Counted from the first letter of the stretch, positions 2,381 through 47,584 are shown. The stretch is 64,000 nt of DNA from an uncultured Pseudomonadota bacterium (GCA_903921785.1 CAIXRH010000055.1:4717-68716), one strand, 5' to 3'. A program made the numbers and translations. Notes: generated by a model not told the origin, from the sequence alone.

Positions 2381-3898
2381 TCAGGGGCCGCGCCGCGGGG
2401 TTTCTCCAGGCGACGTCGCTCCGCCGGGAGTGCCCACCGGCGGCGCCGCCCCGCCCGGGCCCGCTCCGCCCGGCGAGCCGGGGGCCGCCTCCGGCGTCGT
2501 TCCCCCTGCCGCGTTCGGGTCCGCCACCACGTTCATCTTCCGACGACTCTCGCCGATCGCGGAGAGCGGCTTGCCGTCCTCGTCCACGTACCCGAGGGCT
2601 TCGAGCTGGGACTTGAGCGCCTGGTCCCCCGCAGAGGCTCCCGCGCCGACCTCGAGCACCCCACGCTCCAGGGTGCGCGTGGCGATGGGGGCGAGCGGCA
2701 CCACGTCGAAGAGGTCGGTCGCCACCTTCCCAGGCATGTCGGCGGCGGCCGGCAGCCCCAGCAGCGCGTACACGGTCGGCGCCACGTCGTACACGTGAAC
2801 CTTGCCGGTCGCTCCAGCCTTCACGTGCGGGCCGATCGCGGCGAAGACCGCGACCCCACGGTGCTGCCCCTCCACCAACGGCTTGCTCCCCGACACCTGG
2901 AACCCGTGGTCGCTCACGACCAGCAGCGTGGTGTCCGGCCCGATCACCGCCTCCACACGCCCGAGCACGCTGTCCAGGTAGCGGTAGTAGTCCGGCACCC
3001 ATTGTGCGGCTTCGCCCAGGTGATCGGAGGTGAGCCCGGTCTCGCCCCAGGGCGGCATCGCGTGGTTGGGGTGCCGACGGAGGATCTCGTCGACCTGCCG
3101 CTTGTGGGCGCCGGGGTCGAGCCGGATCTCCCGCTGCACTTCGGGCTCGGTGAACGGCCAGTAGATGTGGCTCACCTGATCGGCGCCGTTGAGGTACACC
3201 GCGCCGAATTCGGCGTCGGAGGTGGGCCAGAGCGCCTCGAAGACCCGCAGGTGCAGCTCGTCGCGGCGCAGCGGATGGGAGGGCGCACCGTACTCCTTCA
3301 CCTGGTAGGCGAGCGGGCTGGCGTCGAGCCAGGCCTGGTCGGGGAGCAGCGCCGCGGCGCGGGTGGCCAGCGTGTCGGGGTAGGTGGTGACCTGGGGGTG
3401 TCCTTCCACCACATCCTGATCTTCATCGCGGGACATCGGCAAGGTCCACACGAAGCGGTCGCTGAGGAGCTGGCCGCGGATGATCCCCGCGGGCCACGTC
3501 ATCAGCCAGCCGGAGACCACGCTCTTGCGTCCGTCGGCGGACAGCGCGTCCCAGATGCGCTCCACCCGCACGTCCGCCCCGGTGAACGAGCGCCCCTGCC
3601 CGTTGGTCCAGCCGCCAACGCCATGAACGTCCGCGGGGTAGCCGGAGGCCATCGTCGTCCACAGGATGGGCGACATGATCGGCGTGGTGACCTCCATCTC
3701 CGCGTGCGCGCCCTCGGCGAGCAGCTTCGTGAGGTTGGGGAGGTCCTTGGCGTAGCGGTGCAACGCGTTATATTCGAGGCCGTCAAGGCCGAGAATCACC
3801 ACGCGCGTGCGGGGCGGACGGGCGCAGCCGAGGCCGGCGGCGAGGACCGTGAGGGCAACGGCGACAAACCCGCCCAGGGCGATGTAGCGGCCACGCAT
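2381..3898 (-). CDS. Alkaline phosphatase superfamily (nucleotide pyrophosphatase/phosphodiesterase-like) lipoprotein
   Basis: ILGLDG metal ligand, PIMSPILWTT (Ser nucleophile), VVSDHGF, GQHR, C-terminal LEALGYV; lipobox LGC. Confidence 0.8.
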   Translation of the reverse strand: MRGRYIALGGFVAVALTVLAAGLGCARPPRTRVVILGLDGLEYNALHRYAKDLPNLTKLLAEGAHAEMEVTTPIMSPILWTTMASGYPADVHGVGGWTNGQGRSFTGADVRVERIWDALSADGRKSVVSGWLMTWPAGIIRGQLLSDRFVWTLPMSRDEDQDVVEGHPQVTTYPDTLATRAAALLPDQAWLDASPLAYQVKEYGAPSHPLRRDELHLRVFEALWPTSDAEFGAVYLNGADQVSHIYWPFTEPEVQREIRLDPGAHKRQVDEILRRHPNHAMPPWGETGLTSDHLGEAAQWVPDYYRYLDSVLGRVEAVIGPDTTLLVVSDHGFQVSGSKPLVEGQHRGVAVFAAIGPHVKAGATGKVHVYDVAPTVYALLGLPAAADMPGKVATDLFDVVPLAPIATRTLERGVLEVGAGASAGDQALKSQLEALGYVDEDGKPLSAIGESRRKMNVVADPNAAGGTTPEAAPGSPGGAGPGGAAPPVGTPGGATSPGETPRRGP

Positions 3899-4219
3899 CG
3901 CCGCAGGGCTAACCGTGGGCGGGCGGCGGTGCGGCGGTGGTCGGGGGTTGCCCGGCGGCCGGCGGCCCTCCGCCTCGCCATTCTCCCCTCAGCGGTTGCT
4001 CGACCTCGGCGTTCCCGGCCGGGAAGGTCGGTGGGGCGCCACCAGCCCCTTCGCACCTCGGTCGCCGTCCCGTCGGGTCCCGGTCAGGCGGCCGTGGAGC
4101 GTCGGCGCGGCGAGGCAGGGGGCGGCGCCAGGGCCGACGTGGCTCAGGGCGCCACACACCGTCGGCGCATCGCGGGGAAAAGCCCAGGCGCAACGCCCGT
4201 CACCGCCCCCGGGTAGGCC

Positions 4220-5620
4220 TCAGCCGCAGCTCACCACCTGCGTGCCGCTGCACCCGGTGCTGTCGCAGGTGACGAGGTCGGTGATCGCGGTGGAATTCCC
4301 GAAACACCAGGCGTTGCTGTAGTAGGGCTGGCGCTGGATGTCGTTGACGGAGTTGTCGTCCACGCCCGCGTTGCCCCAGTCGCAACCGGAGGAGTCGAGG
4401 AGCCCGTTGGACTTGCTCGAGAAGTAGAACCCGCCGGCGATCGGCGCGCTGTTGCTGGTGAAGCCGCCGCCGCCGAGGCCGGTCACGTCGCAGGTGAGCT
4501 CGCCGTGGTCCTGCACCCACACGCCCCCACCGACCTCGTTGGCGACGTTGCCGGTGACCCAGGAGTCGTGCATCGCGACACTGCCGTAGTCGAGCAGCGC
4601 CAGACCGCCGCCGTAGTCGGTCTGATTGCCGGTGATGATCGTGTCGTAGAACGTGACGTTCGGGGTGAACGCCACCGCTCCCGACTGGGTGACCGCGACC
4701 CCACCCCCCTTGGTGTTGTCTTCGCTGCCGATGCCGCCGGTGATCGTGAGGCCGCGGACCGTGAGCGTGGCACCGGTGACCGCGATGACCGACCCATCGT
4801 CCCCGCCCGCGGTGCCGTGGGTGGTGAGCGTCGTTTTGGCTGCGCCGTCCCGCCCGACCACGGTCACGTCGGAGCCGAGGCCGGCGAGCACCACCTTCGC
4901 GTACCAGGTGCCCTCGCACAGCGACACGGTGCCGCTGGTGACCTCGATGGAGTATCCGGCCTGATCGCCGATGTACGCCGGCGCGTCGGCCGTGCCGGCG
5001 GCGAGGGGCGCGGTGACGTCGTAGCGCACGCCCGCGGGGTCCTCGTACATGGCGGTGCCAGGGAGGTCGATCACCCCGTCGCAGTTCTCGTCCTCCCCGG
5101 AGCACAGGTCGTCCGCGTCCGGGTTCACGTGGTTGTCGGTGTCATCGCAGTCCGAGTCGTCCGCGACGTAGCCGGAGGGCTGCTCGCAGGCAGAGGTCGG
5201 GGCCGCGGCGTCGCCGAAGCCGTCGTTGTCGGCGTCGGCGTACCAGGTGGTGGCGAGGCCCTCGTCGGTGGCGCCGTCGCAGTTGTCGTCCGCGCCGTTG
5301 CACACCTCGGTGGCGGCGGGGTTGATGTCGCCGTTGGTGTCGTCGCAGTCCGAAGCGTCCACCACCCAGCCGATGGCCTTCTCACAGGCCTCCTGGGGGC
5401 TGTTGAGGTCGCCGTACGTGTCGCGGTCGTTGTCCGCGTAGTAGGTGACCGGCGCCGAACCGTCGGGACACAGACCCGTGTCCCCGGTCTCGGCGGTGTC
5501 GACCGTGGCGGTGTCCGCTGTGTCGCCCGGCTCCTTGCCGGTGTCGGTGTTCCCGGGGCACCCGAGGAGCAGGCCAAGGGCGAGGACGCTGACGGGACGG
5601 ACGAGCGCACGAACGGTCAT
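4220..5620 (-). CDS. Lipoprotein with MopE-type putative metal-binding repeats and a beta-helix (GGG/FxxN repeat) domain
   Basis: LLLGC lipobox; YADxDxDGFG...DCDDxxxxxNPxAxExCxGxDxNCDG units; C-terminal GGGLA/FTSNSA repeats. Start chosen at ATG 5620 with AAGGGG upstream. Confidence 0.75.
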   Translation of the reverse strand: MTVRALVRPVSVLALGLLLGCPGNTDTGKEPGDTADTATVDTAETGDTGLCPDGSAPVTYYADNDRDTYGDLNSPQEACEKAIGWVVDASDCDDTNGDINPAATEVCNGADDNCDGATDEGLATTWYADADNDGFGDAAAPTSACEQPSGYVADDSDCDDTDNHVNPDADDLCSGEDENCDGVIDLPGTAMYEDPAGVRYDVTAPLAAGTADAPAYIGDQAGYSIEVTSGTVSLCEGTWYAKVVLAGLGSDVTVVGRDGAAKTTLTTHGTAGGDDGSVIAVTGATLTVRGLTITGGIGSEDNTKGGGVAVTQSGAVAFTPNVTFYDTIITGNQTDYGGGLALLDYGSVAMHDSWVTGNVANEVGGGVWVQDHGELTCDVTGLGGGGFTSNSAPIAGGFYFSSKSNGLLDSSGCDWGNAGVDDNSVNDIQRQPYYSNAWCFGNSTAITDLVTCDSTGCSGTQVVSCG

Positions 5621-46485: not shown

Positions 46486-47508
46486 TCACTCTGGGCGCGG
46501 CACCCGCCGCTCGCCGGGATGCTCCGCCAGCCACGCCCCGATGAGCGGGAAGACGTCCTGCTCCGCGTCCTCCCCGAGGCCGAGATCGAGGTGTCCATAC
46601 CCAGGTACTTCCACGTATTTCGACGGATCGCCGGCCACCCAAGGGCGCACCCAGTCGGGCCGACCGACCTGGTCCGCGCCGCCGGCGATGGCCAGTACCG
46701 GAGTGTTCGTGGTGTGGAACGCCGCCGTCCAGTCGGTGGTGCGGTCGACGCTCTCGAACCGTTCGTCCTCGATCATCCGCCCCATCTGCTGCATCTCCTC
46801 CCGCGACATCGGGGAGGCCACGCTCCGGAGCATCCGCCGCTCGGTCTCCGGGCGGAAGTGGTCGCGGTTGTAGAGGCGGTACTGGAGCTGCCCCGGCGTG
46901 GCGGGTCCGAGCGCCGCGGCGGCATCGCCGCCCACCCCGGATTCCACCCAGAAGAGCCCCGCGCCGGCGGCCTTGAGCACGCCCATCGCCACCCGCACCA
47001 GCTTCGTGTCCTTGGTGAAGGTGGCCGGGCTGCCCACCACCACGAAGCTCGAGAGGTTCTTCCCGCCGCCGTTCGCGACGTAGATGCCCCCGACCATCCC
47101 GCCCATCGAGTGGCCCACGTACCCGACGCGGGCGTAGCCGGTCACGTCCTGCACGAACGACACCGCGGCGGCGACGTCGTAGCGGCCGTAATCGTCCACC
47201 GTCCAGCCGCTGATCTGCGGCGTTCCGTCCTCGGTGGTGCGCGCGTTGCCGTGGCCCCGGAGGTCGAGGAGCCAGGGGTCAAAACCCTGCCGGACCAGCC
47301 AGCGGGCCGCGGAATGATCCTCGTCGAGGTCCCAGAAGGTGTGGTTGCTGGAGATACCGTGCACGAGGATCACCGGGGGGCCCTTCCCCGGGTGGTGGTG
47401 CAGCGCGATGGTGGCGCCATCCTCCGTGATCACGTAGCGGTCCGTCGCGAGCGGACACGGCGCGGGCGGAGCCTCGGGGGCGCAGGCGAGGAGCAGGAGG
47501 GTCAGCAC
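46486..47508 (-). CDS. Alpha/beta-fold hydrolase (lipase/esterase-like lipoprotein)
   Basis: LVHGISSN, DLRGHG, GHSMGG, AGGADQ, GYGHLDL; MLTLLLLA-C. Confidence 0.85.
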   Translation of the reverse strand: MLTLLLLACAPEAPPAPCPLATDRYVITEDGATIALHHHPGKGPPVILVHGISSNHTFWDLDEDHSAARWLVRQGFDPWLLDLRGHGNARTTEDGTPQISGWTVDDYGRYDVAAAVSFVQDVTGYARVGYVGHSMGGMVGGIYVANGGGKNLSSFVVVGSPATFTKDTKLVRVAMGVLKAAGAGLFWVESGVGGDAAAALGPATPGQLQYRLYNRDHFRPETERRMLRSVASPMSREEMQQMGRMIEDERFESVDRTTDWTAAFHTTNTPVLAIAGGADQVGRPDWVRPWVAGDPSKYVEVPGYGHLDLGLGEDAEQDVFPLIGAWLAEHPGERRVPRPE

Positions 47509-47584
47509 GAACGCGCGCTAACCCGGGACGACGCCGAGGGTGCCCAGGGGGTGGAGGTCGGGCCAGGGCTTGCCGACCGGCCGG

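What the first reader, a model, noticed from the sequence alone, without database searches (positions are those of the whole stretch)
3898..47520. Pervasive leaderless-mRNA promoter geometry (TA at -12/-13 from the start codon)
Seen: in GC-rich DNA where TA is rare, at least 14 transcription-unit-initial genes have TA exactly 12-13 nt before ATG/GTG and no SD: 3898(-), 6735(-), 6805(+), 18337(-), 18404(+), 21039(+), 27808(-), 29774(-), 29797(+), 37620(-), 41739(+), 44754(+), 46427(-), 47508(-). Two sub-styles occur: TGnTAnnnT (21039, 27808, 41739) and GTTAG (3898, 6805, 18337, 18404, 44754, 47508), the latter lacking the -7 T. Genes with leaders have GGAG and the TA further upstream. Known: a -10 hexamer 6-7 nt before the start codon marks leaderless transcripts, as in Actinobacteria and Deinococcus. 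Inference: heavy leaderless translation in a Myxococcota-like lineage, possibly with a relaxed GTTAG -10 variant or a second sigma factor.
Basis: partly seen in the sequence, partly recalled or inferred. Interest (0 to 1): 0.7.

Follow-up and report, generated by a model that had tools for sequence, protein, structure and literature searches.

The report
Leaderless-gene promoters with GTTAG box
In this uncultured lake myxobacterium about a quarter of operons have the promoter's -10 box pressed against the start codon, so their messages probably have no leader; that layout is known from other bacteria, but this bacterial order uses an unusual box (G-n-T-A, often GTTAG) that works without two normally important promoter contacts.

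Summary
All 14 sites carry TA with the T at -12 or -13 and have no Shine-Dalgarno (SD) motif. With starts chosen blind to upstream motifs, 12.3% of 6,209 genes have TA with T exactly at -12, against a background of about 1.2%. The figure is 18% for divergently transcribed genes.

The surrounding motif is a sigma-70-type -10 element: G at -14 in 77%, and only a weak -35. TTG starts are almost absent. The same boxes also occur about 27 nt upstream, with an SD motif in between, giving roughly 15-nt "mini-leaders". An estimated 20-29% of transcription units are leaderless-type. This layout is already known (GeneMarkS-2 "group C"; a 2011 survey of delta-Proteobacteria).

Only 636 GTTAG exist in the 7.5-Mb genome, and 45% lie 11-15 nt before an ATG or GTG. 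T at -7 is optional (41%) and trades off against A/T at -13. This grammar is shared across the genome's whole taxonomic order and is absent from other Myxococcota. The DNA-contact regions of RpoD are unchanged. Orthologous promoters swap GTTAG, GATAG and GATAC, which favours one sigma factor.

No transcript data could be obtained, so transcription start sites remain inferred.

The parts
3906..3913 (-). -10 box GTTAGCCC (T at -13) for the phosphodiesterase-family gene starting with ATG at 3898(-)
   Evidence: sequence; Pfam PF01663; first start codon of its ORF
6742..6749 (-). -10 box GGTACAAT (T at -12, T at -7 present) for the NAD-dependent epimerase gene starting with GTG at 6735(-)
   Evidence: the Pfam epimerase domain starts at residue 5; first start codon of its ORF
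6791..6798 (+). -10 box GTTAGCGG (T at -12, no T at -7) for the gene starting with ATG at 6805(+)
   Evidence: first start codon of its ORF
18345..18352 (-). -10 box GTTAGGCC (T at -13) for the proposed ATG at 18337(-); this start is less certain
   Evidence: my motif-blind caller chose TTG at 18292 instead
18390..18397 (+). -10 box GTTAGCCG (T at -12) for the PKD-domain gene starting with ATG at 18404(+)
   Evidence: first start codon of its ORF
21025..21032 (+). -10 box GCTATGGT, preceded by T to give TGCTATGGT (an extended -10 of the TGnTAnnnT type), for the MopE-repeat gene starting with ATG at 21039(+)
27816..27823 (-). -10 box GCTACGGT (T at -13; TGnTAnnnT type) for the MopE-repeat gene starting with ATG at 27808(-)
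29781..29790 (.). Shared bidirectional box GGGTTATCCC / GGGATAACCC. One TA step serves as -12/-11 for both dapF (ATG at 29774, minus strand) and nadK (GTG at 29797, plus strand). The two start codons are exactly 22 nt apart.
   Evidence: five such 22-nt divergent pairs with a central TA exist genome-wide
37628..37635 (-). -10 box GATACCCG (T at -13) for the proposed ATG at 37620(-); this start is less certain
   Evidence: no Pfam match; my caller chose TTG at 37671
41725..41732 (+). -10 box GGTACGCT (T at -12, T at -7 present) for the pyroglutamyl peptidase gene starting with ATG at 41739(+)
   Evidence: Pfam PF01470 aligns residue 1 to profile position 1
44740..44747 (+). -10 box GTTAGGCA (T at -12, no T at -7) for lgt, starting with ATG at 44754(+)
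   Evidence: the box position is conserved in orthologs across genus, family and order while the flanks diverge
46435..46442 (-). Box CTTATCTG (T at -13, no G two bases upstream of the T) for the proposed ATG at 46427(-); the weakest of the 14 sites
   Evidence: my caller chose GTG at 46457
47515..47522 (-). -10 box GTTAGCGC (T at -12) for the alpha/beta-hydrolase gene starting with GTG at 47508(-)
   Evidence: orthologs in G170, G171 and G191 keep GTTAG or GTTAC exactly 12 nt before a GTG
20223..20253 (+). Mini-leader example: -10 box TATACT (20223-20228), SD motif GGAG (20241-20244), ATG at 20251. The implied 5' UTR is about 16 nt.
   Evidence: conserved in four same-genus orthologs
44578..44605 (-). 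Sigma-54-type -24/-12 box GGCATGGCCCGTGC (44592-44605) lying 13 nt before the ATG at 44578(-); a near-leaderless sigma-54 promoter
   Evidence: the GGCACG-N4-TTGC-N13-ATG arrangement is conserved in orthologs; genome-wide spacing

Best explanation
These are promoters of the housekeeping (sigma-70-type) RNA polymerase. Their -10 element ends 6 nt before the start codon, so transcription should begin on the A or G of ATG/GTG. The resulting mRNA would have no 5' leader and no Shine-Dalgarno (SD) site.

Roughly 20-29% of transcription units in this genome are built this way. A further few percent use the same box about 15 nt further upstream and have a minimal leader of about 15 nt that holds only an SD site.

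In this organism and its whole taxonomic order, the -10 element is weighted toward its upstream half. T(-12)A(-11) is near-obligatory and G(-14) is strongly preferred. T(-7) is optional and is replaced functionally by A/T at -13. GTTAG(CC) is the extreme, -35-less form of this grammar.

What is shown: the positional signal, its genomic context, its conservation and its phylogenetic range. What is inferred: that sigma-A reads these boxes, that transcription starts on the start codon, and that the mRNAs are translated without a leader.
For: - Sharp genome-wide peak with motif-blind starts: T at -12 in 12.3% of genes against about 1.2% background. The peak is 18% in divergent genes and 5.6% in genes less than 20 nt from the upstream gene.
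- Position weights of the TA@-12 set: G at -14 in 77%, T at -7 in 41%, and a weak -35 (T 20%, G 49%, C 52%) at a 17-bp spacing.
- Gene-call-free test: of 636 GTTAG in the genome, 137 have ATG/GTG exactly 12 nt after the T and 288 have it at 11-15 nt. The TTG, CTG and ATC controls are flat. GnTAnnnT shows 219 ATG at d = 12 against about 30.
- The same boxes have a second mode at d = 26-32, with an SD motif in 77% of cases. The implied leader length peaks at 15 nt.
- SD motifs occur in only 15% of TA@-12 genes, against 35% of all genes.
- TTG starts are 0.3% against 3.4% in SD-led genes, p = 2e-5.
- Leaderless fraction of transcription-unit-initial genes: 19.6% with blind starts and 28.8% with motif-aware starts, against 1.4-4% in off-frame controls.
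- Ortholog footprints: the lgt and hydrolase promoters keep a G-W-T-A-S box 11-14 nt before a conserved start while the flanks diverge. The boxes interconvert (GTTAG, GATAG, GATAC, GTTAT, GTTAC), and T at -7 comes and goes.
- Graded trade-off: T at -7 is present in 62% of boxes with C at -13, 58% with G, 30% with A and 23% with T (p = 9e-20).
- RpoD regions 1.2-3.0 are canonical and identical to those of lineages without GTTAG.
- No alternative -35-like word is enriched in the GTTAG class.
- Sigma-54 boxes show the same two geometries, so start-codon-proximal initiation is general in this genome.
Against:
- Gene starts come from a home-made coding-potential caller, not a benchmarked gene finder.
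- T at -7, one of the two most conserved -10 bases elsewhere, is missing in about 57% of the sites. The GTTAG class also has no detectable -35. That is unusual for sigma-70 promoters and leaves room for another factor.
- No change in sigma-A explains the order-specific grammar.
- 56 of the 761 sites are upstream stop codons.
Confidence: 0.8

Rival explanations
1. The GTTAG / A-or-T-at-(-13) boxes are read by a different sigma factor, or need a lineage-specific RNA-polymerase accessory factor. The TAnnnT boxes are read by sigma-A. On this view the two sub-styles are two regulons.
For: - The GTTAG class lacks both T at -7 and any -35 signal.
- The grammar is confined to one order although the sigma-A DNA-contact regions are unchanged, so some other determinant must differ.
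- The genome encodes several RpoD-like paralogues.
Against: - Orthologous promoters interconvert between GTTAG, GATAG, GATAC and T(-7)-containing forms.
- The -13/-7 relation is graded rather than bimodal.
- Both classes share G at -14, the same spacing to the start codon and the same second, mini-leader mode.
- GTTAG drives housekeeping genes such as lgt.
- No ECF-like GGAAC or other upstream word is enriched.
- The closest RpoD paralogue is also common outside the order (match counts).
Confidence: 0.15
2. The TA signal is a translation signal on leadered mRNAs (a non-SD ribosome-binding or 'TA-like' enhancer), not a promoter.
For: The signal is fixed relative to the start codon, as a ribosome-binding site would be, and no transcription start sites were observed.
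Against: - The same box recurs about 15 nt further upstream with a normal SD motif between it and the start. That fits a promoter and not an RBS.
- TAnnnT boxes carry a weak -35 at a 17-bp spacing.
- The signal is enriched in transcription-unit-initial genes.
- TTG starts are excluded, as expected if the first transcribed base must be a purine.
- The position matches the experimentally mapped leaderless promoters of D. deserti and mycobacteria (PMC4007540, PMC6448022).
Confidence: 0.04
3. The signal is an artefact of chance, mis-called starts, or upstream stop codons (TAG/TAA) that happen to lie at -12.
For: 56 of the 761 TA@-12 sites are stop codons of the upstream gene; 52940+ in the window is one of them. 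Start calling in high-GC genomes is error-prone.
Against: - The gene-call-free spacing test gives the same peak, with flat controls.
- Off-frame controls are 1.4-4% against 28.8%.
- The window-level chance probability is about 5e-11.
- The signal is conserved in orthologs and relatives.
Confidence: 0.01

Closest known systems
Bacterial 'group C' genomes of GeneMarkS-2 (Lomsadze et al. 2018, PMC6028130): leaderless first genes in operons with the Pribnow box 6-8 nt from the start codon
   Same: The geometry is the same: the -10 box abuts the start codon, there is no SD motif, and SD sites are used by internal and leadered genes. The predicted share of leaderless operons is also similar (25-50% in group C against 20-29% here).
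   Different: Group C is mainly Actinobacteria and Deinococcus-Thermus, and only 5.6% of 'Proteobacteria' fell in it. The box composition here is different (G-n-T-A core, T at -7 optional).
Computational survey of leaderless genes (Zheng et al. 2011, PMC3160421): delta-Proteobacteria, 8 of 33 genomes, mean 15.8% (5.7-20.6%) leaderless genes
   Same: It is the same type of signal (a 'TA-like' motif about 10 nt upstream of the start) in the same broad group. My census finds TAnnnT-N6-ATG enriched 1.5-3.8-fold in many Myxococcota families.
   Different: No GTTAG / G(-14) / W(-13) variant or order-level difference is described there.
Experimentally mapped leaderless promoters of Mycobacterium smegmatis / M. 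tuberculosis (PMC6448022) and Deinococcus deserti (PMC4007540)
   Same: The -10 element lies directly upstream of ATG/GTG and there is no clear -35 consensus. Leaderless mRNAs make up 24-25% (mycobacteria) to 47-60% (D. deserti) of transcripts.
   Different: In M. smegmatis the core is ANNNT (79% of promoters), and T at -12 is the optional base (63% of those). Here the reverse holds. Net counts at the -12 register are about 223 TAnnnT, about 310 TAnnnV and about 10 VAnnnT.
Extended -10 (TGn) promoters of E. coli and Gram-positive bacteria (my own knowledge)
   Same: The conserved G at -14 and the independence from a -35 element both resemble extended -10 promoters, in which sigma region 3.0 contacts compensate for a missing -35.
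   Different: T at -15 is not conserved (11% T; G is preferred at -15 and -16). A/T at -13 matters. Extended -10 promoters normally keep T at -7.

Membership tests
Bacterial leaderless-mRNA promoter architecture (GeneMarkS-2 group C type) | [quoted passage not shown] | tested here: met
   T at -12 in 12.3% of all starts against about 1.2% background. Gene-call-free spacing shows a peak at d = 12.
Bacterial leaderless-mRNA promoter architecture (GeneMarkS-2 group C type) | The signal is concentrated in first genes of transcription units, while internal genes use SD sites | tested here: met
   18% in divergent genes against 5.6% in genes less than 20 nt from the upstream gene. The GGAG peak lies at -9 for other genes.
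Bacterial leaderless-mRNA promoter architecture (GeneMarkS-2 group C type) | No Shine-Dalgarno sequence between the box and the start codon | tested here: met
   0 of the 14 window sites have one. 15% of TA@-12 genes against 35% of all genes have an SD-like tetramer in -20..-4.
Bacterial leaderless-mRNA promoter architecture (GeneMarkS-2 group C type) | The transcription start site coincides with (or lies within 5 nt of) the first base of the start codon | not testable with these tools
Indirect support: TTG starts are excluded.
Canonical sigma-70 -10 hexamer (TATAAT / TANNNT) | T at -12 and A at -11 | tested here: met
   Excess of +15.7% T at -12 and +16.4% A at -11 in SD-less transcription-unit-initial genes. 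VAnnnT shows no peak.
Canonical sigma-70 -10 hexamer (TATAAT / TANNNT) | T at -7 | tested here: not met
   Present in only 41% of TA@-12 sites and 17% of GTTAG sites. Net counts are about 310 TAnnnV against about 223 TAnnnT.
Canonical sigma-70 promoter | A -35 element (TTGACA-like) 17 bp upstream of the -10 | tested here: inconclusive
   A weak ttGC signal is seen in non-GTTAG boxes (T 20-23%, G 49-53% at -35..-33). None is seen in GTTAG boxes.
Extended -10 promoter (TGnTATAAT) | T at -15 and G at -14 | tested here: not met
   G at -14 is present in 77%, but T at -15 in only 11% (G 55%). Only a minority are true TGn boxes, such as 21039+ and 27808-.
ECF (group 4) sigma promoters | A GGAAC-like -35 with a CGT-type -10 at a 16-17-bp spacing | tested here: not met
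   No enriched upstream word in the GTTAG class survives multiple testing. The position-weight matrix is flat upstream of -17.
Dispersed repeat / MITE carrying GTTAG | Shared sequence beyond the box | tested here: not met
   The flanks of 60 listed GTTAG sites are unrelated.

The most novel reading that the evidence does not exclude
One whole order of Myxococcota has rewired housekeeping promoter recognition. It uses an 'upstream-half' -10 element (sGG-G-W-T-A-S, epitomised by GGGTTAGCC) that needs neither a -35 element nor the otherwise near-universal T at -7. This happened without any change in the DNA-contacting residues of sigma-A.

That would imply an undiscovered determinant. Candidates are an RNA-polymerase accessory factor acting at the upstream edge of the transcription bubble (CarD/CdnL- or RbpA-like) or a change in the core enzyme. 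The determinant would have co-evolved with a transcriptome built almost entirely of leaderless and roughly 15-nt mini-leader mRNAs, including sigma-54-driven ones.
Probability: 0.3. Interest if true: 0.65.

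Novelty: new variant of a known kind. Interest (0 to 1): 0.5.

Why it matters
Leaderless genes are systematically mis-started by gene finders that expect an SD site. Knowing that 20-29% of operons in this large, uncultured freshwater myxobacterial order are leaderless-type, and which box marks them, would improve start-codon annotation, signal-peptide prediction and promoter prediction for hundreds of MAGs.

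For transcription biology, a clade in which T at -7 is dispensable and A/T at -13 plus G at -14 compensate, with an unchanged sigma-A, is a natural experiment on how the -10 element is read. GTTAG is so rare in the genome and so often positioned at a start codon (45% of all copies) that it is almost a stand-alone gene-start marker.

The general phenomenon, abundant leaderless genes in high-GC bacteria including 'delta-Proteobacteria', is already known from computational surveys. That part is ordinary.

Tried and rejected
- **Naming the leaderless delta-Proteobacteria.** The supplements of the GeneMarkS-2 and Zheng 2011 papers were not held or held no names.
- **RpoD-neighbourhood synteny for promoter footprints.** That region has no leaderless promoters, and the per-locus samples from the 80 RpoD loci were too small.
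- **Census with GNTA-N10-ATG.** The tool's backward control has a different coding background, so the result is only suggestive: the pattern/control ratio is about 1.0-1.6 in the order against about 0.55 outside it. I replaced it with direct sequence sampling.
- **RpoD residue explanation.** Regions 2.3, 2.4 and 3.0 are identical in GTTAG-positive and GTTAG-negative lineages, so I rejected it.
- **GTTAG as a repeat element or ECF promoter.** Rejected.
- **Early reading corrected.** I first read the GTTAG box as confined to the own family plus one sister family. The denser sample showed it is order-wide.
- **Identity of G141.** I considered that the single-contig same-order genome G141 might be a named cultured species. 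Its length (9,398,701 bp) did not match what I remember for Haliangium ochraceum, so I make no identification.

Full report
**Observation check.**
The window is 71.6% GC and TA is its rarest dinucleotide (0.86%). All 14 listed start codons exist. Each has TA upstream, with the T at -12 (nine sites) or -13 (five sites). None has GGAG, GAGG or AGGA at -17..-4. With 56 genes called in the window and a chance rate of about 2.4% for two positions, 14 hits have P of about 5e-11.

Seven of the 14 starts are the first possible start codon of their ORF. Pfam domains begin within about 10 residues of the proposed start for DapF (residue 3 to profile position 1), pyroglutamyl peptidase (1 to 1), Lgt (11 to 7) and an epimerase (5 to 2). 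Three starts (18337-, 37620-, 46427-) differ from the ones a coding-score caller picks and are less secure.

**Genome-wide test.**
The window lies in a 7.48-Mb, 362-contig assembly. No gene finder was installed, so I wrote one. It scores ORFs by dicodon log-odds and chooses non-overlapping ORFs greedily. It places each start at the ATG, GTG or TTG that maximises the downstream coding score, and it never looks upstream. It,295 genes at 90% coding density.

Upstream of these motif-blind starts, TA with its T exactly 12 nt before the start codon occurs in 12.3% of 6,209 genes. Flanking positions show about 1.2%, and internal in-frame ATG/GTG show 0.2-2.4%. Positions -11, -13 and -14 are shoulders at 3-4% each.

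The peak depends on context:
- 18% in divergently transcribed genes
- 17% with a 20-59-nt gap to the upstream gene
- 11.7% with a gap of 60 nt or more
- 5.6% with a gap under 20 nt

The 761 TA@-12 sites have G at -14 in 77%, G at -15 in 55%, and T at -7 in only 41%. They show a weak -35 (T 20%, G 49%, C 52% at -35, -33, -32, which is a 17-bp spacer). Their start codons are 72% ATG and 28% GTG.

**Tests that do not depend on gene calls.**
Only 636 GTTAG pentamers exist on both strands of the genome. Of these, 137 have ATG or GTG exactly 12 nt after the T, and 288 (45%) have it at 11-15 nt. TTG, CTG and ATC show no peak. For GTTAGC[CG] the share is 53%. GnTAnnnT gives 219 ATG at d = 12 against about 30 at other spacings.

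Relative to called starts, both GTTAG and GnTAnnnT have two sharp modes:
- d = 11-15: 208 GTTAG and 370 GnTAnnnT
- d = 26-32: 86 GTTAG and 151 GnTAnnnT

In the second mode, 77% of cases have GGAG, GAGG or AGGA between box and start. The figure is 15% in the TA@-12 class and 35% overall. The implied leader length peaks at 15 nt.

One box serving two geometries, one without SD and one with SD in a minimal leader, is what a promoter element would do and not what a ribosome-binding signal would do. TTG starts are 0.3% in the GnTA@-12 class against 3.4% in SD-led genes (p = 2e-5). That is expected if the first transcribed base must be the purine of the start codon.

With a strict box (G-n-TA, T at -11..-13), 19.6% of transcription-unit-initial genes are leaderless-type with blind starts and 28.8% with motif-aware starts. 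Off-frame controls give 1.4-4.0%. Fifty-six of the 761 sites are stop codons of the upstream gene.

**The GTTAG sub-style.**
GTTAG is the commonest 5-mer at -14..-10 (106 of 761). It is depleted in T at -7 (17% against 44%; p = 3e-8). It extends to sGG-GTTAGCC-s, has no -35 signal and has unrelated flanks, so it is not a repeat.

It is the extreme of a graded trade-off. T at -7 is present in 62% of boxes with C at -13, 58% with G, 30% with A and 23% with T (chi-square 92, p = 9e-20).

Without conditioning on TA, the net counts at the -12 register in transcription-unit-initial genes are about 223 TAnnnT, about 310 TAnnnV and about 10 VAnnnT. So T(-12)A(-11) is near-obligatory and T(-7) is optional. 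This is the reverse of M. smegmatis, where 79% of mapped promoters have ANNNT and only 63% of those have T at -12 (PMC6448022).

No upstream word distinguishes GTTAG promoters from GnTAnnnT promoters after multiple testing. The top hit, TAAC, is the reverse complement of back-to-back GTTAG boxes.

**Lineage and phylogenetic range.**
The RpoD protein finds freshwater-lake MAGs labelled Deltaproteobacteria, Myxococcales or Myxococcota at 77-86% identity (Lakes Biwa, Baikal, Tanganyika, Swiss lakes, Erken). Other Myxococcota MAGs score about 65%, and Bdellovibrionota and Desulfobacterota about 50%.

Whole-genome pattern counts, each with the tool's backward-pattern control, show the following:
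- TAnnnT-N6-ATG is enriched in many Myxococcota families: own genome 374 against 107; same-class family f6 2.3-3.8-fold; large-genome family f34 about 1.6-2-fold; f10 about 2-fold.
- GTTAG-N9-ATG is enriched across the whole order of this genome (families f1-f5 and f43; for example 82/6, 72/5, 77/12, 40/1, 52/3, 47/9).
- GTTAG-N9-ATG is not enriched in the other orders of the class or in the rest of the phylum (for example 12/6, 4/8, 3/16, 0/9, 1/10).

Direct sampling of sequence confirms a different grammar:

| Feature of TA@-12 boxes | In-order relatives (f1, f2, f3) | Outgroups (f6, f34, f10) | p |
|---|---|---|---|
| G at -14 | 67/87 | 19/40 | 0.002 |
| A/T at -13 | 50/87 | 6/40 | 6e-6 |
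| GTTAG | 12/87 | 0/40 | 0.018 |
| T at -7 | 42/87 | 27/40 | 0.055 |

Comparing the own genome directly with the outgroups, T at -7 is 309/761 against 27/40 (p = 0.0009).

**Sigma factor.**
The genome has one full RpoD and several paralogues. I aligned 29 RpoD sequences from GTTAG-positive and GTTAG-negative lineages. Regions 2.3/2.4 and 3.0 ([40 protein letters not shown]) are identical in both groups, and region 1.2 differs only conservatively.

**Ortholog footprints.**
I collected thirty Lgt orthologs from genus, family and order. They keep the start (MWKT...). A G-W-T-A-S box stays 11-14 nt upstream while the rest of the upstream DNA is unalignable. The box changes between GTTAG, GATAG, GATAC, GTTAT and GATAA, and T at -7 appears (TAGATT, TAGCCT, TAGACT) and disappears.

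The alpha/beta-hydrolase at 47508- keeps GTTAG or GTTAC exactly 12 nt before a GTG in three same-genus genomes. This interconversion, the shared G at -14, the shared spacing and the shared second mode all favour one holoenzyme over two regulons. It does not prove it.

**Side observations.**
- The gene at 44578- has a conserved sigma-54-type box (GGCACG-N4-TTGC) 13 nt before its ATG in all orthologs.
- Of 60 strict sigma-54 boxes in the genome, 7 have ATG 11-13 nt downstream and 35 have ATG 22-33 nt downstream. These are the same two geometries.
- Earlier AI notes of this scan report sigma-54 promoters abutting start codons in other Myxococcota. They are unverified, but they agree.
- dapF and nadK (29774- and 29797+) are 22 nt apart and share one central TA. 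Five such pairs exist in the genome.

**What is known.**
GeneMarkS-2 defines 'group C' by exactly this signature. It reports group C in 90% of Actinobacteria, 97% of Deinococcus-Thermus and 5.6% of Proteobacteria, with 25-50% leaderless operons (PMC6028130). Zheng et al. 2011 list delta-Proteobacteria with leaderless genes in 8 of 33 genomes, at a mean of 15.8% (PMC3160421). A 2025 paper suggests that pexR in myxobacteria may be leaderless (PMC12754779). M. xanthus Cappable-seq data exist, but no global leaderless or motif analysis is reported (PMC8844925). I found no description of a GTTAG, G(-14)/W(-13), T(-7)-optional -10 grammar.

**Verdict.**
The interpretation as leaderless-type promoters is well supported in silico and belongs to a known kind. 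The order-specific box grammar is a new variant of it.

**Limits.**
- No RNA evidence was available.
- Gene starts come from a home-made caller.
- The genomes are MAGs without names.
- The identity of the factor that reads the boxes is inferred.

Noticed in passing
window 44578-44605 (- strand); genome-wide: A sigma-54-type -24/-12 box (GGCATGGCCCGTGC; GGCACG-N4-TTGC in orthologs) lies 13 nt before the ATG of the gene at 44578(-) and is conserved in six relatives. Of 60 strict sigma-54 boxes in the genome, 7 have ATG 11-13 nt downstream and 35 have ATG 22-33 nt downstream. Sigma-54 promoters therefore also make near-leaderless or mini-leader mRNAs here.
   Followed up: partly
window 20223-20253 (+), and genome-wide: There is a 'mini-leader' class: a -10 box about 27 nt before the start with only an SD motif in between, giving an implied 5' UTR that peaks at 15 nt. 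286 genes fit this against 63 in a control window. The example TATACT...GGAGA...ATG at 20251+ is conserved in four relatives.
   Followed up: partly
window 29774-29797: dapF (minus strand) and nadK (plus strand) start codons are exactly 22 nt apart, and a single central TA (GGGTTATCCC) sits at -12/-11 for both. The two leaderless promoters overlap completely and should be mutually exclusive. Five such 22-nt pairs with a central TA exist in the genome.
   Followed up: partly
41685- has GATAC with T at -11. 23991+ has ATTAG with T at -13. 24797+ has GGTACACT at -12, but it overlaps the upstream gene by 4 nt, so it is probably translationally coupled. 52940+ has TAGGCT at -12, but that TAG is the stop codon of the upstream gene, which is a false-positive type.
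   Followed up: partly
window 6805+, 18404+, 21039+, 27808-, 47508-: Several leaderless-type genes encode proteins whose hydrophobic signal-peptide core begins at residue 2-4 with little or no charged n-region (MRHFLLTASL, MWLCVSFALA, MFALLLLAAS, MSALLLLLLV, VLTLLLLACA). For 6805+, 18404+ and 47508- no upstream start codon exists in the ORF, so the short n-region is not a start-calling error.
   Followed up: no
locus set L095-L104, L173-L182 (genome G032, family f6): In the out-of-order family f6 the upstream TA signal is broader (T at -16 to -11) than the sharp -12 peak of the own order. This suggests variable 0-4-nt leaders there.
   Followed up: no
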